Part shown: positions 1,012-15,456 of the stretch, piece by piece | How positions within the stretch are numbered: position 1 is the stretch's first letter | Layout: each line of letters opens with the position of its first letter | Source: an uncultured virus (IMG/VR IMGVR_UViG_3300043775_002819) | Lineage: Duplodnaviria; Heunggongvirae; Uroviricota; Caudoviricetes | Direction: 5' to 3' (one strand) | DNA length: 64,000 bases | IMG/VR virus record: IMGVR_UViG_3300043775_002819 | Notes under the pieces: model-generated | What the model was told of the DNA's origin: nothing | Databases searched by the model: none | What the model saw: the letters and a program-made list of their open reading frames with translations, nothing else | Position numbers and translations under genes: made by a program

Positions 1012-2141
1012 CTAATTCTATACTCAGTCGGGTTAAATAAACCTGGCTGAGTTGCCATTGCAATCACACTATCAACATCAGAAACACCCATTTTAGAGTT
1101 CCAATTTTGTCGTGAGGTCCCAACTCTAAATGTCACTTTAAGGGTTTCAGGGTCAACTTTCTCAACTTTAAGGTAATGTTTTTTATCAGGTAATTGTTTG
1201 AATACAAATAATTTCAATTCTCCAAGTTTTCTCATTATCTCAATATAATCTGAGTTAATTTCTTCGTGAGCCTTTTCAATATACTCATCCATCAGATCCT
1301 CAAGTTTCTCACAAGTCTCACTTTCAAAAATTTCATTATCCCAAACACTATATTCAATTTCATAATACTCAGGTGGATGATTATTAAAACCCCTTTCGAT
1401 TGTGCTAAATAATAGATCCAATACATTCTCATCAAAGTCCCCTTTATCTATATACAACTGAACAAGATTACCCCAACTTATAAAGTAAGTTTTAAAACAA
1501 TTTGTAAGTCTACTACTACCCCAATTTTCAATACCAAATTGTTTTAGACCATCACAATAAGTATTTTCTATCAATTCTTGAGCTCCACTAGAAACTGCAC
1601 TATCTTTTCCTCTACAAACTATTTCATCAATTTTATCACCAAGACCAGGAAAAAACTTATCCAATATCGTTGGTAGTTTACCTTCACCATCATATCTTAT
1701 ACCACGATTATTTGTTTTTACAAAATATTTACTTGTAGATGGGTCTAAAAACTCGGCAAGTTGTTTTAGTTTTAACATTGCAGAATCACAAAAATAATTT
1801 AATTGATATCCTTCATCCCAATCATCGTACGCCCTATCTTGACACTCACTATAAAAGTCCCAATTTCCGTAATACATTCTATCGTAATTTCCAGCGTCCC
1901 ACTCACCATCAGTACCTTCTTTATATGTTTCTTGAAAGAAAAACTTTAAAAATTCTTCTAAATCATTAAAATGAAACAATAGACCATGGGGAGTTACTTC
2001 AATAATATCACTGAAATCTTTACCTTCAGAATTGTAAAAAACAACATCATTATGGTCTAACTTTCTTTTATTTAAAAGTAGAATTTTTCTGAAATCTTCA
2101 AGTTCATCAATATCTTCTTCTATTAATAGTCTTTTTCTCAT
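1008..2141 (-). CDS. hypothetical phage protein
   Basis: 377-aa acidic ORF, TATTTAT motif upstream. Confidence 0.75.
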   Translation of the reverse strand: MRKRLLIEEDIDELEDFRKILLLNKRKLDHNDVVFYNSEGKDFSDIIEVTPHGLLFHFNDLEEFLKFFFQETYKEGTDGEWDAGNYDRMYYGNWDFYSECQDRAYDDWDEGYQLNYFCDSAMLKLKQLAEFLDPSTSKYFVKTNNRGIRYDGEGKLPTILDKFFPGLGDKIDEIVCRGKDSAVSSGAQELIENTYCDGLKQFGIENWGSSRLTNCFKTYFISWGNLVQLYIDKGDFDENVLDLLFSTIERGFNNHPPEYYEIEYSVWDNEIFESETCEKLEDLMDEYIEKAHEEINSDYIEIMRKLGELKLFVFKQLPDKKHYLKVEKVDPETLKVTFRVGTSRQNWNSKMGVSDVDSVIAMATQPGLFNPTEYRIS

Positions 2142-2156
2142 GTATTTATAAATATA

Positions 2157-2205
2157 TTGTCAAAGTGAAATCTTTGTATTATATTTGTTCTATAGTTCTT
2201 TGAAA
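2157..2205 (+). promoter_or_regulatory. Bacteroidota-type promoter plus boxA-like element upstream of tmRNA
   Basis: TTGTCA (2157), TATATTTG -7 box (2180-2187), GTTCTTTGAAA (2195-2205). Confidence 0.65.
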
Positions 2206-2224
2206 ATAGTCATTAAAGATATAT

Positions 2225-2642
2225 GGGCCTATATCGGATTTGACGGGCGTTGGTTGGATAAAAGAAGCATGTAGGGACTAAGTTAATCTCTTTAAAAACT
2301 GACTTAGAAAACAACTGGCAATGTGCTAAACAAAATGGAAACTCTTGGTTTACTAAGAGGTTCTGAAGTTACTGTAGCTTAATAAGATACGGAAACGGAG
2401 GGTCGGTCAGACAGATACCTAGTAACAGAAGTCGTAGATGAGTTGGTTTTCACTCTAAAAGGAAACAACGGTCTCGTTCAGAGGGCTACCGTAACAAAAG
2501 TGAACTCGACACAGTTTTTGGTGACAATGTCAAAATAGGAACCAAATATTTTGGAAGGTATGAAAAACCTTAACCTAAACATGTAGTTGTCTTTTTGACA
2601 AAACGAGCCGGACGAGGGAGTCGGAGCCCTCTAGGTCCACCA
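2225..2642 (+). ncRNA. ssrA: tmRNA; predicted tag GNVLNKMETLGLLRGSEVTVA**
   Basis: GGGCCTA/TAGGTCC acceptor stem with G3:U, discriminator A and encoded CCA; GGATTTGAC D-loop analog; AACT-GGC resume context at 2317 with tandem TAA at 2380-2385. Confidence 0.92.
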
Positions 2643-2646
2643 ATTG

Positions 2647-2674
2647 AAACCTCATCTTCGGATGGGGTTTTTTT
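2647..2674 (+). terminator. intrinsic terminator after tmRNA
   Basis: AAACCTCATC-TTCG-GATGGGGTTT hairpin plus T-run. Confidence 0.8.
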
Positions 2675-2693
2675 ATACTTAAATTTTTGGGCA

Positions 2694-2717
2694 TAAAAAA
2701 AGGGACGATTCGTCCCT
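2694..2717 (-). terminator. intrinsic terminator after the large ncRNA
   Basis: AGGGACG-ATT-CGTCCCT hairpin with T-run on the minus strand. Confidence 0.7.
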
Positions 2718-2751
2718 AATGTTTTTTACCGGTGGCTCCATTTTAAAAAAA

Positions 2752-3640
2752 AGAAACGCTGAGATTACACGTTTGTGTGAGAACCTTTAGAGTCATTATT
2801 GTTTCTACTCTTATCCACTTCCTTTTGAGAAGTATTTCTCAGTGACGGTCTTTTAGGTATACCATTCCTTGAGGTTTGAATTACTCTCATCCTAATCTAC
2901 TCTTTTCGAGGATGCCTCCCCAACTCGTCCTTGCGGGACTAAAGGTTTTTCGGATAATTACACATCGACTTGGGATCTCTGTGTGCAATGAACGGCTCAT
3001 TACTATGTAGTCACCTTTCATCCAAACCTGACGGACACTTTTCCTTAATTTATTCTTAATGGTTATTAATAATAATAAGTTTTGTGTCGTGGATTATCGA
3101 AGTAGTGGTCCGCCAACCGAGCCAACCCATCTTTTGAACGAGTCGATACTCAACTACTCCGTGAAATGTCCCCATCTCCATATTTCAAGACTACTTCGAA
3201 ACTAACTCCTTGGTAGAAGTAAATTAAGGTTAGTAACGACACCACTCGTACACTAACATACCTTTCGGCTTTAAGTATCCTTTTATATTGGAACACGCAA
3301 TAATGAAATTGGATAATATCATGTTTTGCAAATATTCCTACGAGTTATTCCTATTGGTGTTCCCACCTCAATTTGACGACCCACATCGCCAAATCACCTA
3401 ACCACTTTCCCTACAGCGTTGCCCTCGGTACTAAAGGTTAAACGGTATCCCGCTTGTGTACTCGAGCTCCCGAAGAAGCCGCAAATCATCTAACACAAAT
3501 GACTCACTTTATCCTACTTTCGTAGATTATTTATGGACTACACACGGCCCAATATCTTTATCAGTTAAAAGATGAAAATTTCATTCCAATTACTTGTCAA
3601 ATAATCTGACAAAACTTTTACCTGAATGGATAATCTATTT
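2752..3640 (-). ncRNA. large structured ncRNA, GOLLD-like (~890 nt)
   Basis: No ORF in the track, GC above background, many hairpins with GCAA/TTCG loops, own promoter, boxA-like element and terminator. 3' end ...CGTGTAATCTCAGCG resembles GOLLD as I recall it; family needs a covariance-model check. Confidence 0.65.
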
Positions 3641-3708
3641 TTTCAAAGAACGTATCGGACTTTTCCGATTTGTTTTACAAAGTTAAGACATTTATTTTAA
3701 TCTGTCAA
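3641..3708 (-). promoter_or_regulatory. promoter plus boxA-like element for the large ncRNA
   Basis: Minus strand TTGACA...TAACTTTG then GTTCTTTGAAA. Confidence 0.65.
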
Positions 3709-3736
3709 GCACTTTGTGATTTTTTTTTTATTTTTT

Positions 3737-3883
3737 TTATTCCGCAATTTCTACGGTTTCAAAATATAATTTACTACCACATTGGACCGCTCTTATTTTA
3801 GCGAAAGTCTCATTTGATGTCCATACTTGAACTCCGTTGTTATAGTAGTAATAAATTTCAACTAATTTTGGTTCTTCACTCAT
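3737..3883 (-). CDS. small hypothetical protein (48 aa, MSEEPKLVEIYY...)
   Basis: Read manually; below the ORF-track cutoff; A-rich start context. Confidence 0.55.
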   Translation of the reverse strand: MSEEPKLVEIYYYYNNGVQVWTSNETFAKIRAVQCGSKLYFETVEIAE

Positions 3884-3939
3884 AATCTTTTTTATTTATA
3901 GTGAAATGATAATATAAATATTTCGTTGTGTCAACAAAG

Positions 3940-4674
3940 TTAAAGAATTTTTTTAAAAATATCGTGAATTCTATTTAATTCTTCATTCAAATTTTCATTT
4001 TCTTCAATCGACTCTTTCATCTCACCTACAATACCAAGAAAATTTAAAAAATCACCAATAGGTCCCAAAGCTGATGAAGATTGGTTAGATTTGGTTTTTT
4101 TGTCAGTTGTGGTTTCCTTTTCAATTGATCCTTCTTCTTCTTCGTCATCAATGGAAGTATCGGTTGATGATATTTCCATTTTACCCTTACAAAAACTATC
4201 ACATCTTGATGATCTATTTGGTCCTGGTCCGCAGTAAGTAAAATGCCATGGTTCCGATGTAACCTCACCCCAACACCAACCATACTTATATCCATTGTCT
4301 TTGATCCACTGTTGAGCCTTTCTTGACGACAAGTCTAATGCTCTACCCCAACCATGATTTGACGTTCCAGGAGCCGCCACAGCAACATTAGAAGTCCCAA
4401 TTTTAATTCTCTTTCCTGTTTCTTCATAAGTGTCAAAATTGAAAATATTACATTGGATTTTTAATGGACGATAAGAATCTGAGATTTTTAAATCTTTTTG
4501 AACGTCTTCGGGCATGTCTTCATACATTATCTCGAGTGCGTCTGCAGCCTCAGAAGCCAATTCATATTTGCTTGAACCAACCTCACCTTTTTTTAAATTT
4601 TGAAGACACCCATTATCGGTGGATCCAAATTTTGAACATGGGTTTGAACTACTGCATTCTGATCTTGAAACCAT
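3940..4674 (-). CDS. M15-family D-Ala-D-Ala carboxypeptidase / peptidoglycan peptidase
   Basis: DSYR, GTSNHGWGRALD, EPWH motifs. Confidence 0.85.
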   Translation of the reverse strand: MVSRSECSSSNPCSKFGSTDNGCLQNLKKGEVGSSKYELASEAADALEIMYEDMPEDVQKDLKISDSYRPLKIQCNIFNFDTYEETGKRIKIGTSNVAVAAPGTSNHGWGRALDLSSRKAQQWIKDNGYKYGWCWGEVTSEPWHFTYCGPGPNRSSRCDSFCKGKMEISSTDTSIDDEEEEGSIEKETTTDKKTKSNQSSSALGPIGDFLNFLGIVGEMKESIEENENLNEELNRIHDIFKKIL

Positions 4675-6804: not shown

Positions 6805-7083
6805 TTAAAAAGTTTCATCCCATTCTGAAATAACAAACGATAATGAAATAAAATCATCTTTTTTATCATAATGAACTCTAAATCCTCCGGTTCCAATACT
6901 AATTTTTTGATTAATAGCATCTTCCATTAATCTTCTTGCAGTTTCCCTTATTTCAGGTTCAGTTGGGATTCCATCTTCAGCAGACGCCCATTTCCAGTCT
7001 AACGCAACCATAGTTCGATGAACTTTAGAAAAGTCAAACCAATCCATAATCTTGTCAATTGCTTTTTGTTGTTTCTTTTTCAT
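6805..7083 (-). CDS. hypothetical phage protein
   Basis: ORF coupled to 7083..7355. Confidence 0.7.
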   Translation of the reverse strand: MKKKQQKAIDKIMDWFDFSKVHRTMVALDWKWASAEDGIPTEPEIRETARRLMEDAINQKISIGTGGFRVHYDKKDDFISLSFVISEWDETF

Positions 7084-7355
7084 TACTTTAATTCTTGAAC
7101 TTGTTTCATAACATCGGTTACATCTTCTTCACTCAAGTAACCAATTACGTCATTTGTCACAGGAGTATCATAAGTAAGTTTATCGTCAGAATCCAATACC
7201 GCAATCTCATAAAGACCATCACGACCACCATATGAATGAGAGTGTGATACAACAGATACACCATATCCATTATCAAAATGCATACGGGTTTTTTTACCGA
7301 CCATAAACGGTGCATCATTGATTTGCTCGAATTCTAAATCTTGGAAAGTTTTCAT
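7083..7355 (-). CDS. hypothetical phage protein (FDNGYGVSVV...GLYEIAVL type)
   Basis: Motif typical of small phage proteins. Confidence 0.75.
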   Translation of the reverse strand: MKTFQDLEFEQINDAPFMVGKKTRMHFDNGYGVSVVSHSHSYGGRDGLYEIAVLDSDDKLTYDTPVTNDVIGYLSEEDVTDVMKQVQELK

Positions 7356-7392
7356 AGTTTTTAATTTTAATAATTTACGCCATTAAAACGGC

Positions 7393-7443
7393 GGTTAACA
7401 GTTAGCAAGTGCAATTGAAACTGCACCTGCTTTTGTGTTATAC
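7393..7443 (+). repeat. attC-like site A
   Basis: GGTTAAC...AGCAAGTGCA-loop-TGCACCTGCT...GTTATAC; identical to site F up to GTTA. Confidence 0.75.
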
Positions 7444-7449
7444 ACAATA

Positions 7450-7983
7450 CTAATCCATATATTTTCGACCAATACCTAAAATTTCTTCTCGTGAAACAGC
7501 ACTTAATGATGTTAATACCTCAAATAGAAATCTTTTGTTATGGATAGTCCCATTAAAACAATTTTCTCCTTCATTATTAATCCAATTTGCAATCATTAGA
7601 TGGTTTGTCTTAAAATAAAACTTACCACTAACTTCACAATTATTCATCCTTTTTTTGAATGTACACCAATCTTCGTCATAATGTTTAACTGTGAATCCCA
7701 TTTGTTGAAAGTCTAAGTATGTTATTTCTTCGTTACCATACTTATGTTGGTTGAAAAAGTTTGATAGTCCCAAACCTAATTTTGGTATAACATCAAATAA
7801 ATCTTCATTACTCCTTAACCAATACTCATATTCACCTGTTTCCATATCAGAAATCGGTTTGAAATTTGGTGAGCGACTAAGTCCTATTAAAACACTTACT
7901 TTCTCTTTTCTTTCACGCTCACCCCAAACAACATCTTTTTGTTCTATAGGTGTTGGTCTCTCATTTTCTAATTTTTCTTTCAT
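7450..7983 (-). CDS. cassette-borne hypothetical protein
   Basis: ORF between sites A and B. Confidence 0.7.
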   Translation of the reverse strand: MKEKLENERPTPIEQKDVVWGERERKEKVSVLIGLSRSPNFKPISDMETGEYEYWLRSNEDLFDVIPKLGLGLSNFFNQHKYGNEEITYLDFQQMGFTVKHYDEDWCTFKKRMNNCEVSGKFYFKTNHLMIANWINNEGENCFNGTIHNKRFLFEVLTSLSAVSREEILGIGRKYMD

Positions 7984-8012
7984 ATATTTATTTTTAATTT
8001 AAAATGTACTGT

Positions 8013-8066
8013 GTATAACAAATGATAAACAACATTAAAACGATTGTTTATCATCAGACGTTATCT
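8013..8066 (+). repeat. attC-like site B
   Basis: GTATAAC-AA-ATGATAAACAA/TTGTTTATCAT-CAGAC-GTTATCT. Confidence 0.8.
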
Positions 8067-8095
8067 TCCAACCAATCTACTGCTGTCTGTTTCAT
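8054..8095 (-). pseudogene. truncated ORF MKQTAVDWLEDNV* cut at attC-like site B
   Basis: Typical small-protein N-terminus running into the R' box. Confidence 0.5.
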
Positions 8096-8124
8096 TGTTC
8101 TTGTTGTTTAAGGTTTTACATTCC

Positions 8125-8175
8125 GCATAACAGTTGCTAAAAGACATTAAAACGTCATTTAGCTTTGTGTTAGTG
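8125..8175 (+). repeat. attC-like site C
   Basis: GCATAAC...GCTAAA-GAC/GTC-TTTAGC...GTTAGTG. Confidence 0.75.
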
Positions 8176-8181
8176 GCAATA

Positions 8182-8409
8182 CTACGAAGCAAACCAATCG
8201 AAATTAGTTTCTAAACCACTTATCATCGTTTTTAATTGTTCTATCAATGCTTTTTTATCTTCACCGCATTGATGTAAAACAACTAATTTCTTACGTTCTC
8301 CACCATTATCCATTTCACCAACAAAAGTTTCGATTTGTTCTGTTTCAAACCAAGCACTGCCACTAACATCGGTTTGGCAAGATTGGGGGTTTTGTTCTGA
8401 ATTGTTCAT
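8182..8409 (-). CDS. cassette-borne hypothetical protein, starts inside site D
   Basis: N-terminus PQSCQTDVSGS is encoded by the attC arm. Confidence 0.65.
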   Translation of the reverse strand: MNNSEQNPQSCQTDVSGSAWFETEQIETFVGEMDNGGERKKLVVLHQCGEDKKALIEQLKTMISGLETNFDWFAS

Positions 8410-8492
8410 TTGTTCTATTTATTAAAATTTGTAATTAATTTTAGCGATTGTGCTTTTAGTCCCCAACCTCGCCAAGCCGAGAACCGTTATAA
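8361..8492 (+). repeat. attC-like site D (long loop)
   Basis: CACTAAC-A-TCGGTTTGGCAAGATTGGGG...CCCCAACCTCGCCAAGCCGA-GAACC-GTTATAA. Confidence 0.8.
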
Positions 8493-8508
8493 GTAATAAA
8501 AACAAAAT

Positions 8509-8823
8509 TTATGAATTTATTTTATTTAAAAAATCATTCAATATCTTGTCATATTCAGAAGGTTCAGTAAGAGTTTTCAATTCATCAAACATTTCTTTAA
8601 TTGAAAAAGATTGTTTCATTAATACATCTTTAATAACATCAATTTTACCTATACGGTGTGCTATAAATCGTTGGTTTGTTTCCTTTTTCAATTTTTCTTC
8701 TGCAACTAATAATAAATCAGCTTTCTTTTCTGATTTTTCATTCATCTTGATTACATTAATAATATCTTCAACAGCAGTCGTGATTTTTATTGGTTCTATT
8801 TGTTCTCCGTTTAATTTTTCCAT
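8509..8823 (-). CDS. cassette-borne hypothetical protein
   Basis: ORF between sites D and E. Confidence 0.7.
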   Translation of the reverse strand: MEKLNGEQIEPIKITTAVEDIINVIKMNEKSEKKADLLLVAEEKLKKETNQRFIAHRIGKIDVIKDVLMKQSFSIKEMFDELKTLTEPSEYDKILNDFLNKINS

Positions 8824-8865
8824 GATTTTTTATTTTTTAATTTGTATAATTTTTGTTTTACATAC

Positions 8866-8919
8866 TTATAACAAAGAATATGTGTCATTAAAACGAACAC
8901 ATATTCTCAACCGTTATGT
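8866..8919 (+). repeat. attC-like site E
   Basis: TTATAAC-AA-AGAATATGTGT/ACACATATTCT-CAACC-GTTATGT. Confidence 0.8.
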
Positions 8920-8925
8920 GCCATT

Positions 8926-9192
8926 TTAAATAGCAGCAGCTCTATGATTTGAACAATTACTATTAAATCCAAAAGCACAATTATTACAACCTTCTGATTG
9001 TTCAGCAAAGTGCTTACAGATTGGATATGCCTTTTCACAACCGATAACTTTAGTGATTATGTGCATATCTGCTTCATATTCATTTTTAAAGTGTTTAATG
9101 TCGTTTTGTGTTTCAACCGCATAATTTCCAGTAAACCCGCTTTTGAATTTAATGTAATCTCCATTTGTTTCGTAACCTGATTTTGTTTTCAT
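8926..9192 (-). CDS. cassette-borne Cys-rich hypothetical protein
   Basis: ORF between sites E and F. Confidence 0.65.
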   Translation of the reverse strand: MKTKSGYETNGDYIKFKSGFTGNYAVETQNDIKHFKNEYEADMHIITKVIGCEKAYPICKHFAEQSEGCNNCAFGFNSNCSNHRAAAI

Positions 9193-9235
9193 ATTATTTT
9201 TATTTAATTTTAATAATTTACGCCATTAAAACGGC

Positions 9236-9286
9236 GGTTAACAGTTAGCAAGTGCAATTGAAACTGCACCTGCTTTTGTGTTAGCG
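9236..9286 (+). repeat. attC-like site F (duplicate of A)
   Basis: Same core and ~30 bp left flank as site A; R' GTTAGCG. Confidence 0.75.
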
Positions 9287-9493
9287 GTCATTGCTACCAA
9301 GCCACTTTACGCATTCGCAAAATCCAGCAATAAAGAACGATTGTTCCTGTGCTGTCAACGGTGGTTCTACCATTTCTGAAATTTTTACAGCCATTACCCC
9401 TGCTTCATCAACCGAAGGCAACGAACCGCTAACAACAGATATACCCAATTTGGGGTTCTGTGTTTCATTTGGATTTTCTGCTTTTTTTGTCAT
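9281..9493 (-). CDS. cassette-borne hypothetical protein, starts inside site G
   Basis: N-terminus PKLGISVVSGS is encoded by the attC arm; stop overlaps GTTA of site F. Confidence 0.65.
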   Translation of the reverse strand: MTKKAENPNETQNPKLGISVVSGSLPSVDEAGVMAVKISEMVEPPLTAQEQSFFIAGFCECVKWLGSNDR

Positions 9494-9557
9494 TTTGTTT
9501 ATAATTTAAAGTTTTTATTATTTAATCCCAAACTGGGTATATCTGCAACCGTTAGTG
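9427..9557 (+). repeat. attC-like site G (long loop)
   Basis: CGCTAAC-AA-CAGATATACCCAATTTGGG...CCCAAACTGGGTATATCTG-CAACC-GTTAGTG. Confidence 0.8.
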
Positions 9558-9755
9558 GCTATTTTGAGCAACATTGGTGTCAATTATAATCGGCTCAATA
9601 AAAGTCCCTAATTCGTATTTTTTATTTTCTCCTTTCGGGTACGGTTCAATTCCGTAATTTAGTTTTTTCATATACTCTTTTCTTTTTGTTTTACTTGTTA
9701 CGCAGTAAAATTCGTGTTCGTCTTCGGGTAGGTTAAATGTTAGTTTTGCTTTCAT
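9552..9755 (-). CDS. hypothetical protein, possibly chimeric
   Basis: Stop overlaps the R' box of site G. Confidence 0.5.
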   Translation of the reverse strand: MKAKLTFNLPEDEHEFYCVTSKTKRKEYMKKLNYGIEPYPKGENKKYELGTFIEPIIIDTNVAQNSH

Positions 9756-9785
9756 ATTATTCTGATTTAATTTTAATAATTTTAG

Positions 9786-9857
9786 CGGTCCATGCGAGAA
9801 TCGAACTCGCGGCTCATCCGTGACAGGGATGAATGTTAGCCACTACACCAATGGACC
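9786..9857 (-). tRNA. tRNA-Asp(GTC)
   Basis: GGTCCAT/ATGGACC stem, loop CTGTCAC, TTCGATT T-loop. Confidence 0.88.
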
Positions 9858-10180
9858 ATTAAAAAAGGTTCTGAATCATCCCCACGCCAGTTTGGGAGAA
9901 CCTTTCAAGTTTTAATATTTGACGACATAATATCCCTCACCGATATGACTAAGATTCGTTAGTCCATAGTAACCATCCACGGTGGGTTTATACTTTCACA
10001 CTCCGTCCTTATTCTATCTCACCATCGTGTCGGGTGGAATCAAACTCAGCGTTCAGTGTTATCCTCAGAACATCTTCACCATACCCCCAAAGTTACGTGG
10101 TGGGTCTCACTCGGAAGACGAGTGTATATTGTAAGATTGTTCAGTGTTCTTACAACTTGTGGATTGTATTACGATCACTT

Positions 10181-10311
10181 AAGACCCCTAACCCCCTCCA
10201 TCCATAATGGGGAACCCTTGTTTGTTCGTGTAGCCTCCCCCATAGCCTTGAAGCCTTCAAGTCAGGTTCACACCCATAACAGCCGGATACTTCTGTTAAT
10301 CGTGGGGTCTT
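10181..10311 (-). ncRNA. putative structured ncRNA, closed terminal stem
   Basis: AAGACCCC...GGGGTCTT terminal pairing, GC-rich, within tRNA transcript. Confidence 0.4.
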
Positions 10312-10314
10312 TTG

Positions 10315-10398
10315 AAGTCAGGGTAGGATTCGAACCTACAATGAGCAACCATTTTTAACAAAATGGATTCAACACCAGGTCTCTTTACACTCCTGACT
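10315..10398 (-). ncRNA. tRNA-like RNA (AGTCAGG acceptor, aberrant D-arm, GTT loop)
   Basis: AGTCAGG/CCTGACT stem, GTAGG-TTCGAAT-CCTAC T-arm, CCATT-TTGTTAA-AATGG hairpin. Confidence 0.6.
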
Positions 10399-10527
10399 AA
10401 CCTTTTTTTACAAATGTAAGACATATATTTAGACTAATCAAATTTTTTTAAAAAAAAAATATAATTTAGGGTTAGTTCGTATGACTTTTTTGTGGGTTCG
10501 TGATATTTATATATAAAGGAAGTTATT

Positions 10528-11430
10528 ATGTTTGAATGTAAAATTTGTAATCGTTATATTGATAATCTTGGTAATCTTAACCAACACATTAAAAAATGTG
10601 AAAAATTACATCTAATAAAAGATGAACTTATTAGATTATATATTGATGAATCTTATAGTGTTAAAGATTTAAGAAAAAAATTTAAATTACAATCTGATGA
10701 CATAAAAATAATATTAGGAGATAAAGTCAGATCGGCATCCGTGGCCAATAAATTAGCCCATAAAAAATATCCAGAAAACTTCAAACATACTGAAGAAAGT
10801 AAAAAAATAATGCGAGAAAAAAGATTGGAGTTTATGAAAAATAATCCTGAAAAAACTGCTTGGAGATTATCCAATGTTTCCTACCCAGAAAAATTATGTA
10901 TTGAATATATTGAAAAAAATGGTTTAGATAAAAAATATGCAATAGTTAGAGAATATTCGGTTTTTCCTTATTTTATTGATTTTGCGTTTGTAAATCAAAT
11001 GGTTGCTATTGAAATTGATGGATCTCAACATCTTTTACCCGAAAGAAAAGAAAGAGACGATAAAAAAGATAAATTATTAAATGAATTAGGTTGGTTAGTT
11101 ATCAGAGTTTCGGAAAAAGAAATTAAAACTAATATTAATAATGTTTTTGATGAAATTGTTTCAATACTGAATAAAAAACCAAAAATAAATAATATAAGAA
11201 TTGGTATGGTAGTTCACCCTAAAAAACACAAGAAAAAAGACAGAAATGAATTTGGTTTTACAGAAAAACAAATCCAATCAATGAAGAGTCAGAGAAAGGT
11301 TGAAAGGCCGAATCATGAAGACTTACTTAAATTGATTGAAGATAACGGTTTTAGGTCAACCGGAAAAATGTTTGGTGTTTCAGATACTGCAATTCGTAAA
11401 TGGGTAAAGTCTTACCAAAAAGGATTATAA
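10528..11430 (+). CDS. DUF559/Vsr-like PD-(D/E)xK endonuclease (putative homing endonuclease)
   Basis: N-terminal CxxC finger, KHTEESKKIM NUMOD-like motif, YFIDFA...IEIDGSQH...D...GWLVIR, C-terminal HTH; inserted antisense in the tRNA cluster. Confidence 0.8.
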   Translation: MFECKICNRYIDNLGNLNQHIKKCEKLHLIKDELIRLYIDESYSVKDLRKKFKLQSDDIKIILGDKVRSASVANKLAHKKYPENFKHTEESKKIMREKRLEFMKNNPEKTAWRLSNVSYPEKLCIEYIEKNGLDKKYAIVREYSVFPYFIDFAFVNQMVAIEIDGSQHLLPERKERDDKKDKLLNELGWLVIRVSEKEIKTNINNVFDEIVSILNKKPKINNIRIGMVVHPKKHKKKDRNEFGFTEKQIQSMKSQRKVERPNHEDLLKLIEDNGFRSTGKMFGVSDTAIRKWVKSYQKGL

Positions 11431-11433
11431 TTG

Positions 11434-11505
11434 TAGCCCATCCCGGTAACGCTCCGAGATTTTTTGGTTGAAAACCAAATGTCCTTACTTTTAGACGAAT
11501 GGGCC
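11434..11505 (-). tRNA. tRNA-Glu(TTC), non-canonical T-loop
   Basis: TTTGG-TTTTCAA-CCAAA anticodon arm; T-loop AGCGTTA. Confidence 0.8.
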
Positions 11506-11516
11506 AAATTAAGAGT

Positions 11517-11629
11517 GTAAAAGATTCGTCTTACCTAAGACCGCGGATCCCCATAAGACTTAACTTTACCAATCTGTTGATTTGCAACTCATCAGATTGT
11601 CAGGTTACTACTCATACAGAACCTTTTAC
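11517..11629 (-). ncRNA. putative structured ncRNA, closed terminal stem
   Basis: GTAAAAGGTTC...GAATCTTTTAC terminal pairing with internal hairpins. Confidence 0.4.
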
Positions 11630-11644
11630 TGCTTTCAGTGTTTA

Positions 11645-11722
11645 CTACGACCATACAGGATTCGAACCTGTGTCCTTCGGCTTGTGTGCCGACGCTCTAA
11701 CCGCTCGAGCTAAAAGCCGTAG
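11645..11722 (-). ncRNA. tRNA-like RNA with irregular anticodon loop
   Basis: Canonical D-arm (TAGCTC...GAGC) and T-arm; weak extended acceptor; loop ACACAA without U33. Confidence 0.55.
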
Positions 11723-11748
11723 ATATTTACTTTCCGCTTTTCTCTTAG

Positions 11749-11901
11749 TAACCCCAGTGGGAATCGAACCCACCTTGTGAACTACATGTAATAAGCTTCA
11801 ACTTTGATACTCCGATCCTAGTATTAAGGAGAGTTACTCGCAAATTACCCTCATTCACCCACTTATCGCCATGGTAGCGAACCATAACCGACTATGGAGT
11901 C
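11749..11901 (-). ncRNA. tRNA-like RNA with ~100-nt insert in place of the anticodon arm
   Basis: GACTCCA/TGGGGTT acceptor, GTGGG-TTCGATT-CCCAC T-arm; own TTTG...TATCTTTG promoter at about 11910-11945. Confidence 0.55.
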
Positions 11902-11965
11902 ATATTGTTAAAACAAAGATAAGTAGAATATTTCAATTTAACAAATCTTTTTTTAACTTTTTTTG

Positions 11966-12039
11966 CGGTCTGGACGGGACTCGAACCCGCGACCCCCTGC
12001 GTGACAGGCAGGTATTCTAACCAACTGAACTACCAGACC
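11966..12039 (-). tRNA. tRNA-Asp(GTC)
   Basis: Canonical cloverleaf, loop CTGTCAC. Confidence 0.92.
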
Positions 12040-12045
12040 AAGTTG

Positions 12046-12119
12046 TGGAGGTAAAGGGATTCGAACCCATGACCCTCTGCGTGCAAGGCAGATGCTCTAG
12101 CCAACTGAGCTATACCCCC
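12046..12119 (-). tRNA. tRNA-Ala(TGC)
   Basis: G3:U70, loop TTGCAC. Confidence 0.92.
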
Positions 12120-12196
12120 ATAACCAAAGTCGCTATTATAAGTAACGACTTTTTAACTTTTTCTCCACTTACTTCTTTCGAATGGAAGATAAGATG

Positions 12197-12269
12197 AGCG
12201 GAAGAAGAGACTCGAACTCTCAACAACCTGCTTGGAAGGCAGGAGCTCTACCAATTGAGCTACTTCCGC
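12197..12269 (-). tRNA. tRNA-Gly(TCC)
   Basis: GCGGAAG/CTTCCGC stem, loop CTTCCAA. Confidence 0.9.
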
Positions 12270-12486
12270 AAAGTGTGACAACCTTTGGGGTCGGTTATCA
12301 CTTTTACGTGAATGGGGTGATCAAACCCACTAACATCACGGGTGTTGGTTTTTCACATTAAACCATCTCCACAAAACGAAAGTTTTTATCAACCAAAACT
12401 TTATAAACGACTTGACTATTTTGTAACCCCCATTTTAAGTGCGTGTTACCTCTTTCTCAAGTAGAACTCTACTGTCGACACTCCCG

Positions 12487-12559
12487 TGCTGATGAAGGGA
12501 CTTGAACCCATAGCCTTGACGATATAAGCGTCCTGCTCTCACCATTGAGCTACATCAGC
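12487..12559 (-). tRNA. tRNA-Ile(TAT)
   Basis: GCTGATG/CATCAGC stem; GACG-CTTATAT-CGTC anticodon arm. Confidence 0.85.
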
Positions 12560-12566
12560 ATTATAG

Positions 12567-12649
12567 TTGCGGGAGGTGGGCTCGAACCACCGGGGTCAAA
12601 GACACGAGGTTATGAGCCTCGCCAGCTACCAACTACTTACTATCCCGCC
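12567..12649 (-). tRNA. tRNA-Met(CAT), initiator-like, with extra variable arm
   Basis: CGAGG-CTCATAA-CCTCG; 1:72 mismatch. Confidence 0.75.
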
Positions 12650-12656
12650 TTATTTG

Positions 12657-12731
12657 TGGTATGGGAATGGAATCGAACCATCGGCACAAGGGGTTTCCGT
12701 CCCTTTGCTCTACCTACTGAGCTACCACACC
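12657..12731 (-). tRNA. Phe-like tRNA with 8-nt anticodon loop (possible pseudogene)
   Basis: AAGGG-ACGGAAAC-CCCTT; normal D and T arms. Confidence 0.55.
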
Positions 12732-12758
12732 ATTTTATGTAAAATTACTAAAAATATA

Positions 12759-13268
12759 TTATTTAAACAACTTACCTTGATAATTTTTAGCAACTTCTTT
12801 TAATTTTTCATTTGAGTAGTTTGAGTGTTCTAATCTGTGACACAACGCACATAACAAATCACATTTATCTAACTCATTTTTCACTTTATCCCAACTCATA
12901 TTTGCCATGTTGAGGGCACTTGAGTTAAAATCTTTTTCTTCTGGGTCTCTATGATGAAGGTCATATCCTGATAAATCACCTTTCCACCCACACTTAACAC
13001 ATTCACCACCCAAATATTTAACCGCGTATTCCTTAACTCTATACCTTCGTATGTTTACAGAACACATTTGACAAAAATTCTTACTTGTTATTGTTTTTCC
13101 ACAAAGTTTACAACAAGTTTCTTCCTTTTTGTTATACTCAATTCCGTTTCTATTTATTATTCTATAAACCGTTCTTCTTCCAATACCTAAGTCATTAGAT
13201 ATTTCGGTCGGTGTTTTTTTTTCGGTATACAACCTAATAACCTCTAATTCTTTTTCTGTTTTCTTCAT
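12759..13268 (-). CDS. HTH + HNH endonuclease
   Basis: N-terminal HTH, CxxC pairs, YDLHHRDP and CDLLCALCHRLEH. Confidence 0.85.
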   Translation of the reverse strand: MKKTEKELEVIRLYTEKKTPTEISNDLGIGRRTVYRIINRNGIEYNKKEETCCKLCGKTITSKNFCQMCSVNIRRYRVKEYAVKYLGGECVKCGWKGDLSGYDLHHRDPEEKDFNSSALNMANMSWDKVKNELDKCDLLCALCHRLEHSNYSNEKLKEVAKNYQGKLFK

Positions 13269-13348
13269 ATCTCTTTATTAATAAATATCAAGAAAAAATA
13301 GAAAAGACACACTTTTAGTAAAAAAAAATATACTTTTTGTGTCTTTTG

Positions 13349-13450
13349 TAGTCAGGACAGGATTTGAACCTGTATTGGTGACCGACTTAATTACTTGGGA
13401 CTTGAACCCACACCACTCTTCCGATGCGTCTACCATTCCGCCACCTGACT
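13349..13450 (-). ncRNA. tRNA-like RNA B2 (AGTCAGG family)
   Basis: AGTCAGG/CCTGACT acceptor, TGGCGGAATGGTAGACGC D-arm, ACAGG-TTCAAAT-CCTGT T-arm, ~50-nt non-anticodon middle. Confidence 0.65.
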
Positions 13451-13465
13451 ATTTGAGGTTGAGTT

Positions 13466-13578
13466 CCTCTGTGTTGTCTGTACTGTTTTACCCCCAATCA
13501 AACGATTGACATTACTTTTAATGTAATCAGTTTCATACGTAGCGTCTGTTCAGTCTTCCTTTCTCAAGGGAACAACAC
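13466..13578 (-). ncRNA. repeat RNA module A2
   Basis: GTGTTGTTCCCTTGAGAAAGGAA...ACAACACAGAGG. Confidence 0.55.
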
Positions 13579-13582
13579 TTTG

Positions 13583-13702
13583 TAGTCAGGACAGGATTCG
13601 AACCTGTATTGTCATTGTGGCAGGCTATTCTACCTGCGACCTATATCTCGAATTTTATACGAGAACACTTTGAACTATTGGCAACCGTTTCGCCACCTGA
13701 CC
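13583..13702 (-). ncRNA. tRNA-like RNA B1 (AGTCAGG family)
   Basis: GGTCAGG/CCTGACT acceptor, same T-arm as B2, different ~70-nt middle. Confidence 0.65.
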
Positions 13703-13719
13703 ATTTGAGAATGAGAGGT

Positions 13720-13805
13720 CCTCTGTGTTGTAGTGTGCGATTACAATTTTTGTAATTCAAGTAATGTCACTCTTCTTTACAATTCCTTTCTCAAGGGAAC
13801 AACAC
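13720..13805 (-). ncRNA. repeat RNA module A1
   Basis: Same conserved ends as A2, different middle. Confidence 0.55.
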
Positions 13806-13955
13806 AATATTGTCGATAGTGTTGGAGTACCCATCTCGCTCCAATCTTAACTGCTTAATCGTAGTTTTACGAGGCCTCGGCAGAAACGGTGATGAATTCC
13901 TGATCCACTCTGGATTGTCGACATCCGTTGAGTGGGGTAAACCACTATCAATATT
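13806..13955 (-). ncRNA. putative structured ncRNA
   Basis: AATATT-GATAGTG...CACTATC-(GAC)-AATATT terminal stem, GC-rich interior. Confidence 0.45.
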
Positions 13956-13961
13956 TTAAAA

Positions 13962-14094
13962 TGTTTAACGGTTATAGATACTTTATTATCTCCACTTTTA
14001 GTTCCCAACGTAAAGATCACTCTTCCTAATTGTCTTTTAAGTTTCACAGATTTTTATCCTCTCTAACACTTTATCAATACTTTGCCGTTAAACA
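13962..14094 (-). ncRNA. putative structured ncRNA
   Basis: TGTTTAACGG/CCGTTAAACA 10-bp terminal stem. Confidence 0.4.
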
Positions 14095-14111
14095 CTTAAT
14101 ATCTTAAAAAA

Positions 14112-14334
14112 TGGTAAGACCTTAAGATTTACTCATTCGTGGGTCACCCCATCCGTACTACCTATACCTCGCCTTTAACATCCGTTCTACCCAAACCATC
14201 GTTTTTACCTGTTAACCTTTCGGAAAACTTTGAGTACCTCCTCAATCCATTAGTCTGATAGGGGCTCCGTTTTGCTCGTCATTTCTGACTCCCTATGGGA
14301 TTCTGCCGATATAGGTCTATCTGCTATCTTACCA
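14112..14334 (-). ncRNA. putative structured ncRNA (~220 nt)
   Basis: TGGTAAGA/TCTTACCA terminal stem directly after a boxA-like element at 14343-14353. Confidence 0.45.
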
Positions 14335-14479
14335 ATCTAATATGTCAATGAACTTTTTCTCTTTTGTGTGGGGGTGAGTCCACCATCACATTTTCTCACC
14401 CCCGTTGTTTGTTTTACAAATATAAGAACTTTATTTTGATCTGCCAAACACTTTGTAAAATATTTTTTATTTTTTTCTG

Positions 14480-14560
14480 TAGTCCGGGAGGGACTCGAAC
14501 CCTCACGCATTGCGCATTCGATCTTAAGCCGAACGTGTATACCGATTCCAACACCGAACC
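14480..14560 (-). tRNA. tRNA-Leu(TAA)
   Basis: TTCGG-CTTAAGA-TCGAA with long variable arm. Confidence 0.88.
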
Positions 14561-14643
14561 ATTTTCACCATTATGTCAAAGAACCTTTGTCTTTTGTTTC
14601 ACAAAGATAGTGATCTTTTTGAAACTACCAAACTTATATTCAC

Positions 14644-14673
14644 AAAAAAACCCCTCTTTTTTGGGGAGGGGTT
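14644..14673 (-). terminator. attenuator terminator 1
   Basis: AACCCCTC...GAGGGGTT followed by T-run, ~24 nt after the leader stop. Confidence 0.75.
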
Positions 14674-14696
14674 CTAAATATTATATGTATAAAATA

Positions 14697-14765
14697 TTAC
14701 ACCCTCCTCTTGAAAGTTGCCTCAGCTAAATCGCCCCCTATCAATAATATGTGTAAATTTTTCAT
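14697..14765 (-). CDS. putative attenuator leader peptide 1, MKNLHILLIGGDLAEATFKRRV
   Basis: Read manually; promoter upstream (TTGACA...TATATTTATA); 3' end GGAGGGT can pair with terminator arm ACCCCTCC. Confidence 0.7.
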   Translation of the reverse strand: MKNLHILLIGGDLAEATFKRRV

Positions 14766-14840
14766 TTGCGGTTTTTAAGTTTTGTTATAAATATATGATA
14801 CTTTTAGAAAGTGTCAAGTTTTATGGATTATTTTTTTAAT

Positions 14841-15230: not shown

Positions 15231-15302
15231 ATTAATAAATATGAGATCAAAAAGTTATTATTTTAGAAAAAATCTAAAATTTAGTATATATACTATTTTT
15301 TG

Positions 15303-15376
15303 TGCCCCCAGCAGGACTCGAACCTGCAAAATTGTGATCCTAAATCACATGCGTATGCCAATTCCGCCATAGGGGC
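15303..15376 (-). tRNA. tRNA-Leu(TAG), short variable loop
   Basis: TGTGA-TTTAGGA-TCACA; Leu-type D-loop; no long variable arm. Confidence 0.85.
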
Positions 15377-15384
15377 ATTTGTTG

Positions 15385-15456
15385 AGGTCAGGGTGGGATT
15401 CGAACCCACATACCGAGATTTTGCAGATCTGGACTTTACCTATCAGACACCCGACC
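15385..15456 (-). tRNA. tRNA-Cys(GCA)
   Basis: AGAT-CTGCAAA-ATCT; U73. Confidence 0.8.

What the first reader, a model, noticed from the sequence alone, without database searches (positions are those of the whole stretch)
7393..9557. Phage-borne integron-like cassette array with inverted genes and no local integrase
Seen in sequence: seven palindromic TAAC...GTTA sites, each separating a single ORF. R' of one site is the exact reverse complement of R'' of the next in four junctions: GTTATACAC/GTGTATAAC (7437/8011), GTTAGTGGCA/TGCCACTAAC (8169/8358), GTTATAAGTA/TACTTATAAC (8486/8863) and GTTAGCGGT/ACCGCTAAC (9280/9425). Established: this is the signature of cassettes that circularise and integrate at G|TT. 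Sites A and F are identical, including the left flank, and diverge right after GTTA, which places the crossover on the right. All ORFs are therefore antisense to the classical cassette orientation. Most stems have a 2-vs-5-nt internal bulge and no obvious extrahelical bases. Inference: the phage captures and shuffles genes using a host-encoded or distant tyrosine recombinase.
Basis: partly seen in the sequence, partly recalled or inferred. Interest (0 to 1): 0.87.

Follow-up and report, generated by a model that had tools for sequence, protein, structure and literature searches.

The report
Orphan integron-like phage gene-cassette array
A large freshwater phage carries a 2.2-kb row of small genes separated by folding DNA hairpins, laid out like the swappable cassettes of a bacterial integron; the matching recombinase is found only in other, unrelated phages, so such gene units seem to travel between phage lineages.

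Summary
Seven TAAC...GTTA hairpin sites lie at 7396-9554, and four of six junctions show exact flank complementarity across a gene. All four quoted coordinate pairs check out.

The same site family occurs in at least 130 IMG/VR phage loci. Of 113 unique junctions there, 93 show the signature at 4/5 or 5/5, against about 8% of shuffled pairs.

In seven other contigs the arrays end at a conserved hairpin-less half-site. It lies 55-95 nt upstream of a 265-aa Xer/IntI-like tyrosine recombinase that lacks the IntI insertion.

Cassette c1 recurs in other contigs with different neighbours, with homology bounded GTTA to GTTA. One contig pair differs by a single 885-bp cassette inserted exactly at GTTA.

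The window's own lineage has no tyrosine recombinase: the 48%-complete record has none, and neither do four relatives that are 93-99% complete. The array is an insertion absent from 76 of 80 relatives of the flanking gene. It is identical in four other contigs, and lake metagenome runs of 2016-2024 hold 80-98% of its sampled words. So it is an orphan, apparently static array.

An RNA role for the hairpins is not excluded. Earlier notes of this scan describe the same kind of system on other DNA.

The parts
7378..7395 (-). Mini-hairpin (4-bp stem, loop ATTAAAAC on +) directly before site A. Its end and site A's TAAC form GTTAAC. It is part of the 81-nt block duplicated at 9203-9283.
   Evidence: (D1); the same mini-hairpin is identical at the G005 contig end
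7396..7440 (-). Site A: short hairpin site, loop ATTGAAAC, identical to site F.
   Evidence: (minus-strand RNA fold -21.9 kcal/mol, z -4.3)
7437..8063 (-). Cassette c1: 177-aa gene (7450-7983, minus strand), its 5' leader and its own site B (8016-8063). Flank pair TACAC/GTGTA.
   Evidence: The same unit is in L222 (window 7437-8064, 87.9%) and L223 (7431-8063, 87.7%) with other neighbours. It is 100% identical from GTTA onward in G005, next to a different site core.
8061..8172 (-). Cassette c2: truncated. It keeps only 12 codons of a gene (start codon at 8096), its leader and site C (8128-8172). The left flank does not pair (1/5).
   Evidence: L038 has the full-length gene with the same leader and site C
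8170..8489 (-). Cassette c3: 75-aa gene (8182-8409) and long site D (8364-8489). The loop of D holds the leader, the start codon and about 15 codons. Flank pair GTGGC/GCCAC.
   Evidence: (-37.3 kcal/mol, z -4.8)
8487..8916 (-). Cassette c4: 104-aa gene (8509-8823) and site E (8869-8916). The flank pair extends to 27 nt.
   Evidence: I1; L082 homology covers window 8486-8896, 76%, starting at the G of GTTA
8914..9283 (-). Cassette c5: 88-aa gene (8926-9192) followed by the 81-nt copy (leader, mini-hairpin, site F 9239-9283). The flank pair fails (2/5), consistent with replacement of its own site by the copy of A.
   Evidence: Homologues of the gene alone lie in L229-L237 (68-79%) without sites.
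9281..9554 (-). Cassette c6: 70-aa gene (9281-9493; its stop codon is the TAA inside the site's TAAC) and long site G (9430-9554), which encloses its start. Flank pair GCGGT/ACCGC.
   Evidence: (I6, 22 nt, 91%); the site G region is 83% like a site in YR-bearing L021
9552..9784 (-). Last unit c7: 67-aa gene (9552-9755; stop codon in the TAAC of site G). It has no site of its own and abuts tRNA-Asp (9785-9857).
   Evidence: in L126 a c7-like gene carries the leader and site C module

Best explanation
The region is an orphan array of six to seven gene cassettes from an integron-like system that circulates among large phages, probably phages of Bacteroidota.

Each cassette, read on the window's + strand, runs from TTA-n5 through an antisense small gene and its leader to n5'-TAAC-hairpin-G. 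The hairpin is the recombination site, and the crossover lies in or next to the right-hand GTTA. A cassette that leaves as a circle would rebuild one complete hairpin with a 12-bp outer stem. That is why the flank of one site pairs with the flank of the next site across the gene.

The enzyme is inferred to be a 265-aa Xer/IntI-like tyrosine recombinase without the IntI insertion. In other phage lineages it sits at the array end beside a hairpin-less half-site.

The window's phage has the sites but, as far as the data reach, no recombinase. Its array was most likely acquired as a block or built in trans during co-infection, and it is now static. It has since been edited by ordinary homologous exchange of the leader-plus-hairpin modules.

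Shown: the sites, the covariation, the flank rule, GTTA-exact homology borders and one indel, the co-location of recombinase and half-site in relatives, and the absence of a recombinase here.

Inferred: that this recombinase cuts these sites, the single-strand folded (gene-sense strand) substrate, the circular intermediates, and the host.
For: Sites and structure
- Seven sites and four exact flank pairs.
- The family has at least 130 IMG/VR loci.
- In 33 aligned sites 95.3% of cells pair and 10 of 20 pairs change on both sides. No shuffle of 500 reaches this, and slid controls pair at 32-52%.

Flank rule
- Of 113 unique junctions, 71 score 5/5 and 22 score 4/5. Shuffled pairs give 2.5% and 5.3%. 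Only 2 of 195 own-site flank pairs score 5/5.

Recombinase
- PF00589 5e-37 and PF13495 8e-10.
- Homologues of 60-67% identity sit next to arrays in 7 distinct contigs.
- It is the only PF00589 hit in G007, G008 and G011.
- The half-site TATATAnnnTAGTTA|n5-AAT has an n5 that pairs with the first site's left flank at 5/5 in four contigs, 4/5 in one and 3/5 in one. In the seventh (L021) it pairs 5/5 with a partner directly across a mini-hairpin (read by eye).

Borders
- c1 in L222 and L223 covers window 7437-8064 and 7431-8063.
- In G005 the sequence is identical from GTTA onward beside a diverged core.
- c4 homology starts at 8486.
- 59 of 166 right ends of long matches fall 0 to +3 from GTTA.
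- L037 equals L118 plus one 885-bp cassette placed GTTA to GTTA.
- Metagenome contigs diverge at 8063/8064, 8916 and 8363.

Folding strand
- Non-Watson-Crick stem cells are A.C/C.A 347 against G.T/T.G 61 on the + strand, and 17 against 2 in the outer n5. So the gene-sense strand is the one that folds. In this geometry it corresponds to the integron's bottom strand.

Insertion
- 76 of 80 loci with the flanking 200-aa gene lack the array. In L150 the 90-aa gene abuts tRNA-Asp directly.
Against: - No recombinase was found in the window's record (48% complete) or in four relatives that are 93-99% complete. No half-site lies beside the array.
- Complete records G009 and G010 also hold sites without any PF00589 hit. 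The sites therefore persist, and perhaps spread, without the enzyme in cis.
- The array is invariant in four other contigs, and 24 runs of 2016-2024 hold 80-98% of its sampled words.
- No excised circle was shown. The runs were available only as contigs, and the few joints had sides under about 30 nt.
- Site cores are exchanged independently of their left flanks: c4 in L082 and site A in G005. Leader-plus-site modules sit before unrelated genes with the break at the start codon. A single right-hand crossover does not explain either; homologous exchange or a second crossover at TAAC is needed.
- About 12% wobble pairs on the sense strand is what a structured RNA would show.
- Only 8 of 165 left ends of long matches fall at GTTA.
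- The enzyme lacks the region that IntI uses for folded single-strand sites.
- No biochemical evidence links the enzyme to these sites.
Confidence: 0.68

Rival explanations
1. The hairpins are RNA elements of the sense transcript, such as 5' stabiliser or processing sites, or pairing of mRNA ends. They spread and shuffle genes only by homologous recombination between conserved leader-plus-hairpin modules, as PeSLs do in T4-type phages. On this view the recombinase next to some arrays is unrelated or secondary.
For: - The sense strand folds much better: RNA z -3.2 to -4.8 against + strand DNA z -1.5 to -3.0 for the seven full sites.
- Wobble pairs are strongly biased to the sense strand.
- The loop GUUUUAAU is invariant.
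- Sites occur in genomes without any tyrosine recombinase: G001, G005, G009, G010.
- The 81-nt A/F duplication ends at the leaders.
- The leader and site C module stands before two unrelated genes.
- The array is static.
- PeSL precedent: abstracts of PMC2839356 and PMC4122927.
Against: - Homologous exchange does not predict cassette-specific n5 pairs across each gene in 93 of 113 junctions.
- It does not predict an indel bounded GTTA to GTTA between unrelated flanks, or identity that switches on exactly at GTTA beside a diverged core.
- It does not explain a hairpin-less GTTA half-site that obeys the same flank rule beside the sole recombinase of three records.
- No T-run terminator follows any of the seven sites on the sense strand, and promoter-like hits are at chance level, 18 against 16.9.
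Confidence: 0.22
2. The hairpins are miniature non-autonomous transposable elements (MITE, REP or IS200/IS605-like) moved by a single-strand HUH transposase or another nuclease that recognises the conserved loop.
For: - Palindromic units with a conserved loop and a conserved tetranucleotide at both ends.
- The identical core (site B type) sits in many contexts with both borders at TAAC and GTTA: 229 of 918 left ends and 355 of 878 right ends.
- Depth of the site B bin is about 8 to 150 times that of the adjoining bins in four lake runs.
Against: - No Y1 transposase in G001, G005, G007, G008 or G011 and no serine recombinase in the window's lineage.
- Insertion of a hairpin element would give direct repeats or unrelated flanks around each hairpin, not complementarity between the flanks of neighbouring hairpins across a gene.
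- Stems covary freely, so the copies are not recent transposition products.
Confidence: 0.04
3. The pattern is chance, or a by-product of AT-rich intergenic sequence and ordinary terminators.
For: The bare loop octamer is not enriched in the window: 20 matches against 13 expected, and 7 of 100 shuffles reach 20.
Against: Covariation, the flank statistics, the confinement of sites to 2.2 kb of 140 kb, and zero matches to the reversed pattern in ten records.
Confidence: 0.01

Closest known systems
Integrons, especially sedentary chromosomal integrons and CALINs (clusters of attC sites lacking an integrase)
   Same: - Array of single-gene units separated by imperfect palindromes with AAC/GTT cores.
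- The flank of one site pairs with the far flank of the next unit.
- Unit borders lie at G|TT.
- In relatives, a tyrosine recombinase has its 5' end facing the array, with a simple half-site beside it.
- The folding strand corresponds to the integron bottom strand.
- Orphan arrays exist.
   Different: - The enzyme is a 264-265-aa Xer-like protein lacking about 48 residues where IntI4 has its insertion. It scores below the integron-integrase cut-offs.
- The genes are inverted, so the site lies at each gene's 5' side, or even contains the gene's start.
- A 0-1 against 4 nt internal loop stands in place of the extrahelical bases.
- The terminal loop is conserved.
- It is phage-borne.
CALINs reported in virulent phages (Qi et al. 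2023, PMC9892861; abstract and passages read)
   Same: Clusters of attC-type sites without an integrase in lytic phage genomes, including a Polaribacter phage. Some of those sites recombined with attI1 by IntI1.
   Different: Those were found with canonical attC models, and no dedicated phage recombinase is described. The words Xer, Bacteroid and Flavobacter do not occur in the main text. Whether any of their sites belongs to this family was not tested. Their supplementary tables were not opened.
PeSLs, the mobile promoter/stem-loop cassettes of T4-type phages (PMC2839356, PMC4122927; abstracts read)
   Same: - Conserved intergenic stem-loop modules flank small non-essential genes in a plastic region of a large lytic phage.
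- Modules are exchanged between unrelated genes.
- Mini-circles are proposed.
   Different: PeSL exchange is by homology and needs no specific ends. PeSLs pair a sigma-70 promoter with a real terminator. Here there is no T-run terminator and no promoter signal above chance. There are also cassette-specific flank pairs, GTTA-exact borders and an associated recombinase in relatives.
Xer/dif systems and pdif modules of Acinetobacter plasmids (recalled, not looked up)
   Same: A Xer-type recombinase family; genes flanked by inversely oriented recombinase sites.
   Different: dif-type sites are about 28-bp duplex sites with a short central region. Here the sites are 45-139-nt hairpins whose central parts differ between partners.

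Membership tests
Integron (IntI + attI + attC cassettes) | Integron integrase: tyrosine recombinase with the IntI-specific insertion (I2 region) | tested here: not met
   No PF00589 hit in the window's record or in four near-complete relatives. The array-linked enzyme of other phages aligns to IntI4 (2a3v) as 8-173 = 10-177 and 208-261 = 260-313. That leaves 34 residues against 82. TIGR02249 scores 157-161 bits against a cut-off of 265.
Integron (IntI + attI + attC cassettes) | attC-type sites: imperfect palindromes with AAC...GTT cores whose outer box is completed by the next cassette | tested here: met
   Window junctions score 5/5 in 4 of 6. In the family, 93 of 113 junctions score 4/5 or better. 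Stem covariation is shown.
Integron (IntI + attI + attC cassettes) | Detection by the attC covariance model (IntegronFinder/HattCI) | not testable with these tools
I did not run an Rfam search.
Integron (IntI + attI + attC cassettes) | Extrahelical bases and unpaired central spacer in the folded bottom strand | tested here: inconclusive
   In 170 unique sites an asymmetric internal loop (left 0-1 nt, right mostly 4 nt, commonly AACC) lies between the TAAC/GTTA box and the stem. No single-base bulges were looked for systematically.
Integron (IntI + attI + attC cassettes) | attI next to the integrase gene, at the head of the array | tested here: not met
   Not met in the window: there is no half-site motif beside the array and no integrase. 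It is met in seven other contigs.
Integron (IntI + attI + attC cassettes) | Cassette gene reads towards its attC, with the site at the 3' end | tested here: not met
   All seven genes lie on the minus strand with the site on their 5' side. In D and G the site encloses the start codon.
Integron (IntI + attI + attC cassettes) | Cassettes excise as circles and integrate site-specifically | tested here: inconclusive
   Indirect evidence only: GTTA-exact borders and one indel. Contigs of four runs gave no reliable circle junction.
CALIN (attC cluster lacking integrase) | Two or more attC-type sites close together and no integrase nearby | tested here: met
   Seven sites lie in 2.2 kb and there is no PF00589 hit in 140 kb. 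The sites are of the non-canonical type described here.
PeSL (T4-type phages) | Sigma-70-type early promoter joined to a stem-loop terminator | tested here: not met
   Promoter-like hits number 18 against 16.9 expected. No terminator-like hit falls on the sense strand at any site. The scan covers only E. coli-type consensus.
PeSL (T4-type phages) | Exchange of unrelated genes by homology between the conserved modules | tested here: met
   The 81-nt A/F duplication stands before two different genes. The leader and site C module stands before two unrelated genes in L038 and L126.
IS200/IS605, REP/RAYT | HUH Y1 transposase acting on hairpins | tested here: not met
   PF01797 gave 0 of 5 records, while the control rang in 6 of 14 genomes.
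Xer/dif | About 28-bp duplex site with two binding arms and a 6-8 bp central region | tested here: not met
   Sites are 45-139 nt with variable hairpin centres. The site definition is recalled.

The most novel reading that the evidence does not exclude
Large lytic phages run their own gene-capture platform. It has the geometry of an integron but is driven by a minimal Xer-like recombinase that lacks the IntI insertion. It acts on folded gene-sense-strand hairpins that also head each cassette's mRNA. Cassettes move between unrelated phage lineages during co-infection, and lineages such as this one keep orphan arrays without the enzyme. If so, single-strand hairpin recombination does not need the IntI insertion, and integron-type evolution extends well beyond bacteria.
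Probability: 0.5. Interest if true: 0.9.

Novelty: new variant of a known kind. Interest (0 to 1): 0.78.

Why it matters
Integrons are regarded as a bacterial invention that depends on one special integrase. This is the same logic (site, flank rule, head site, recombinase) in phages, with a different and simpler enzyme and with inverted, self-contained gene units.

It gives a concrete mechanism for the turnover of small orphan genes in big phage genomes. It also gives a searchable signature for finding such units, which are probably anti-defence or host-takeover genes.

It offers a natural test of whether the IntI insertion is really needed for recombining folded single strands. The window adds that arrays also sit in lineages without the enzyme, which points to exchange in trans between co-infecting phages.

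Four literature searches found no description of this system. The nearest paper reports canonical attC clusters in virulent phages (PMC9892861).

Tried and rejected
- Bare loop octamer in the window: not enriched, so it is uninformative by itself.
- A first strict fold filter missed B, D, E and G because the 4-bp TAAC/GTTA box is not in the minimum-energy fold. It was replaced by a pairing scan.
- blastn of the region against cultured phages found only tRNA-Asp. Site B found one uncultured 462-kb record.
- Pfam and PHROGs on the cassette proteins: nothing for six of the seven genes (one search scanned all but the 177-aa gene's neighbours as listed). The neighbouring 90-aa gene hits phrog_4074, of unknown function. 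The ESM Atlas for c1 gave 0.83 at best, below the level of a lead.
- Whole genome of the window: not held. The nearest record, G001, was used instead.
- Laying four lake runs: only contigs were available. The joints (8095>9746, 7370>7971, 8917>8851 and others) had sides of 21-31 nt and can come from similar leaders in other phages. I draw no conclusion on circles or deletions from them.
- Search for one-cassette indels among the fetched loci: none at strict settings. Two candidates appeared at looser settings. One is clean (L118/L037). The other (L126/L026) is a 180-nt difference that is not at a site.
- Polaribacter phage Freya_10: ten small genes lie upstream of a 37%-identical integrase, but I saw no TAAC...GTTA hairpins of this family in its intergenic DNA. 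It was not pursued.
- Half-site motif in the window: 11 one-mismatch matches, none beside the array.
- MITE, HUH and serine-recombinase ideas were rejected.
Full report
WHAT IS THERE

The window is part of a 140-kb IMG/VR phage record, G001 (linear, CheckV 48%). Its GC content is 32.6%. It carries 25 tRNA genes on the minus strand starting at 9785.

Between a 90-aa gene (7083-7355) and tRNA-Asp (9785-9857), seven small genes all lie on the minus strand. Seven TAAC...GTTA palindromic sites separate them:
- A 7396-7440
- B 8016-8063
- C 8128-8172
- D 8364-8489
- E 8869-8916
- F 9239-9283
- G 9430-9554

Five sites are short (45-48 nt). They have a stem and the loop ATTAAAAC on the + strand; A and F have ATTGAAAC. 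D and G are 126 and 125 nt. Their arms of about 20 bp enclose the leader, the start codon and about 15 codons of the 75-aa and 70-aa genes.

An 81-nt block made of leader, a 4-bp mini-hairpin and site A is repeated at 100% as site F. My pairing scan of the whole 140-kb record finds such sites nowhere else.

All four quoted inverted pairs are at the stated coordinates. For the 5 nt beyond GTTA and before the next TAAC, the junctions score 5, 1, 5, 5, 2 and 5 of 5. The two flanks of one and the same site score 1-3.

The two failures have explanations.
- The B-C unit is a truncated cassette. L038 has the full-length gene with the same leader and site C, while the window keeps 12 codons fused to the GTTA of site B.
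- The E-F junction fails because the region upstream of the 88-aa gene has been replaced by the 81-nt copy of A.

THE FAMILY

The same pattern read backwards gave no match in ten records.

Nearly all matches are hairpins with different stems. In 33 aligned 48-nt sites, read on the gene-sense strand:
- 95.3% of cells pair, against 78.7% in shuffles and 32-52% with the partner slid.
- 10 of 20 pairs change on both sides.
- 0 of 500 shuffles reach the covariation score.
The pattern fixed the ends and the loop, but not the stems.

Arrays of up to 16 sites in 6 kb occur.

Over all fetched loci I counted 113 unique junctions. The flank rule holds 5/5 in 71 and 4/5 in 22. Shuffled pairs give 2.5% and 5.3%. 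Own-site flanks reach 5/5 in 2 of 195.

The rule extends to a 12-bp outer stem. On the gene-sense strand it reads ATT-n5'-TAAC ... GTTA-n5-AGT and contains a conserved T.G pair.

WHICH STRAND FOLDS

On the + strand, non-Watson-Crick cells in the inner stems of 170 unique sites are A.C or C.A 347 times and G.T or T.G 61 times. My finder treated both kinds alike. In the outer n5 the counts are 17 against 2.

The folds say the same. For the seven full sites:
- Minus-strand RNA gives z -3.2 to -4.8.
- Plus-strand DNA gives z -1.5 to -3.0.

The gene-sense strand is therefore the strand under selection to pair. This fits a folded single-strand recombination site. In the geometry below it is the integron bottom strand. 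It fits a structured mRNA equally well, and I cannot separate the two by computation.

THE ENZYME, IN OTHER PHAGES

In L080 a 265-aa open reading frame lies 400 bp from the first site, on the same strand as the cassette genes. It is a tyrosine recombinase: PF00589 5e-37, and the SAM-like N-terminal domain PF13495 8e-10.

Local tblastn finds homologues of 60-67% identity in seven distinct contigs. All lie at the same end of an array. None is in G001.

Its best matches are:
- In the PDB, the archaeal XerA-type recombinases (4a8e and 5hxy), then IntI4, then XerD.
- In NCBIfam, the XerA/integron-integrase model at 179-195 bits, under its cut-off of 220.
- The integron-integrase model TIGR02249 at 157-161 bits, under its cut-off of 265.

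Against IntI4 it aligns in two blocks, leaving 34 residues where IntI4 has 82. It therefore lacks the IntI insertion. The RHR-H-Y region is conserved in the printed alignment.

A conserved hairpin-less motif, TATATAnnnTAGTTA, lies 55-95 nt upstream of its start codon and is followed by n5-AAT. Its n5 is the reverse complement of the left flank of the first hairpin site as follows (read by eye):
- 5/5 in L018, L013, L069 and L011.
- 4/5 with a C.A mismatch in L052.
- 3/5 in L080.
- In L021 the partner follows directly across a mini-hairpin.

With the recombinase drawn leftward and its 5' end facing the array, the half-site, the site polarity (TAAC...GTTA) and the crossover side are those of intI, attI and attC.

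In G007 (310 kb, terminal repeats, 100% complete), G008 and G011 this enzyme is the only PF00589 hit.

BORDERS OF MOBILITY

- c1 with site B recurs in L222 and L223 at 88% identity. The match covers window 7437-8064 and 7431-8063, that is GTTA to GTTA, with different sites and genes on both sides.
- At the end of the G005 contig (a relative of the window's phage) the mini-hairpin is identical, the site core is strongly diverged, and from GTTA onward c1 is 100% identical.
- The c4 homologue in L082 starts at 8486, the G of GTTA.
- Among long matches between contigs, 59 of 166 right ends fall 0 to +3 from GTTA. Left ends mostly fade inside genes: 138 of 165 are far from a site and 8 are at GTTA.
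- L037 equals L118 plus one 885-bp unit inserted exactly after GTTA and ending in its own site's GTTA. The unit's flanks pair 4/5 with a C.A mismatch. This was one clean case out of two candidates.
- Homologues of the 88-aa gene occur in nine other loci without any site. Cassettes therefore appear to be recruited from ordinary phage genes.

WHAT DOES NOT FIT A SIMPLE INTEGRON

- Site cores are swapped independently of their left flanks: the c4 homologue in L082 and site A in G005.
- The identical B-type core stands between many different flank pairs.
- The leader and site C module stands in front of two unrelated genes, with the break at the start codon.
- The 81-nt A/F copy likewise ends at the leaders.

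So there is a second layer of exchange by homology, like that of PeSLs, or else crossovers can also occur at the left TAAC.

THIS PHAGE'S OWN STATE

- Of 80 loci carrying a relative of the flanking 200-aa gene (68-100% identity), only four hold the array, and all four are 100% identical over it. The other 76 hold no array at the corresponding place (my scan found only isolated hits elsewhere in their flanks), and none has the recombinase within 9 kb.
- In L150 the 90-aa gene abuts tRNA-Asp directly. In L143 one small gene lies between them. The array is therefore an insertion.
- Near-complete relatives G002-G005 (272-292 kb, 93-99% complete) have no recombinase homologue, no PF00589 hit and no serine recombinase. 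G002-G004 have no canonical short site, and G005 has one.
- The enzyme-bearing records have no homologue of the window's DNA polymerase, so they belong to other lineages.
- Complete records G009 and G010 also carry sites without any tyrosine recombinase.
- The stretch is held at 80-98% of its sampled words by 24 lake or freshwater runs dated 2016-2024.
- Contigs of four of these runs cover the array piecewise without differences and break at the sites. The bin containing site B has depth 76-689, against 2-29 in the adjoining bins. Loose ends start at 8063/8064, 8916 and 8363, the site borders. This shows that the cores are shared by many other genomes in the same waters. It does not show circles.

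FUNCTION OF THE CARGO

Unknown. There are no Pfam or PHROG hits and no useful Atlas hit.

The host is inferred, not shown. The leaders are AT-rich and lack a Shine-Dalgarno sequence. The nearest cultured recombinase homologues (about 37% identity) are in Polaribacter and Cellulophaga phages. Both observations point to Bacteroidota.

COMPARISON AND NOVELTY

The system works like an integron, but it fails several membership tests: the enzyme type, the gene orientation, and the attI in this window. PeSLs share the idea of mobile leader-plus-hairpin modules but not the flank rule or the enzyme.

Qi et al. 2023 (PMC9892861) reported attC clusters without an integrase in virulent phages, found with canonical models. 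I read the abstract and matching passages. The main text does not mention Xer or Bacteroidota phage systems. Its supplements were not opened and could list related phages.

Four full-text searches found no description of a phage-encoded short recombinase with such arrays.

Earlier notes of this scan describe the same kind of system on other DNA. I reached my reading before seeing them, and I tested its main points here.

VERDICT

The array is best read as an orphan, currently static member of a phage integron-like cassette system, with confidence about 0.68. An RNA role for the hairpins is likely in addition and cannot be excluded as the main role.

Noticed in passing
window 9785-19684: There are 25 tRNA genes, all on the minus strand. 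One is called with a two-base anticodon (11646-11720, 'tRNA-???'), and tRNA-Asp and tRNA-Phe are each present twice.
   Followed up: no
window 10528-11430 (+): A 300-aa ORF lies on the opposite strand inside the tRNA cluster. It has a DUF559 / MTES_1575 endonuclease-like domain (Pfam 1e-14) and looks like a homing-type nuclease. An 85% DNA match sits in another place relative to tRNA-Asp in L148.
   Followed up: partly
window 9836-9844 and 9551-9559, 8169-8177: The D-arm region of tRNA-Asp reads GTTAGCCAC on the + strand. Its five bases after GTTA are the reverse complement of the flank GTGGC that follows sites C and G. Also, the flank after site F (TTAGCGGTC) equals the 3' end of tRNA-Asp (9781-9789). 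This may be coincidence or a trace of insertion at the tRNA end.
   Followed up: no
L021 (reverse-complement coordinates 2340-2572): Next to the recombinase, the half-site is followed by an 'empty' unit (GTTA-TGGCA-loop-TGCCA-TAAC). After that comes a 188-nt site whose loop holds a sequence that looks tRNA-like by eye. No tRNA scan was run on it.
   Followed up: no
L238 / L239 (Polaribacter phages Freya_10 and Freya_1): Ten Freya isolates range from 43,978 to 48,920 bp, and the integrase start moves from position 68 to 4165. Freya_10 has ten small hypothetical genes upstream of the integrase on the same strand. I did not see hairpins of the TAAC...GTTA family there.
   Followed up: partly
G009 (309 kb, 100% complete): 12351-13158 and 235636: A complete jumbo-phage record has canonical sites at two distant places. 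One core is almost identical to the window's site E. The record has no tyrosine recombinase at all.
   Followed up: partly
window 7970-8076 and 8826-8932: In four lake metagenome runs the summed contig depth over the bin holding site B is about 8 to 150 times that of the adjoining bins. Over the bin holding site E it is 1 to 10 times that of its neighbours. The cores are therefore shared by many other genomes in those waters.
   Followed up: partly
window 9281-9283 and 9552-9554: The stop codons of the 70-aa and 67-aa genes are the TAA inside the site's TAAC. The codons V-S-G-S of both long-site genes are encoded by GTTA-n5-AGT/TCG of the outer stem.
   Followed up: no
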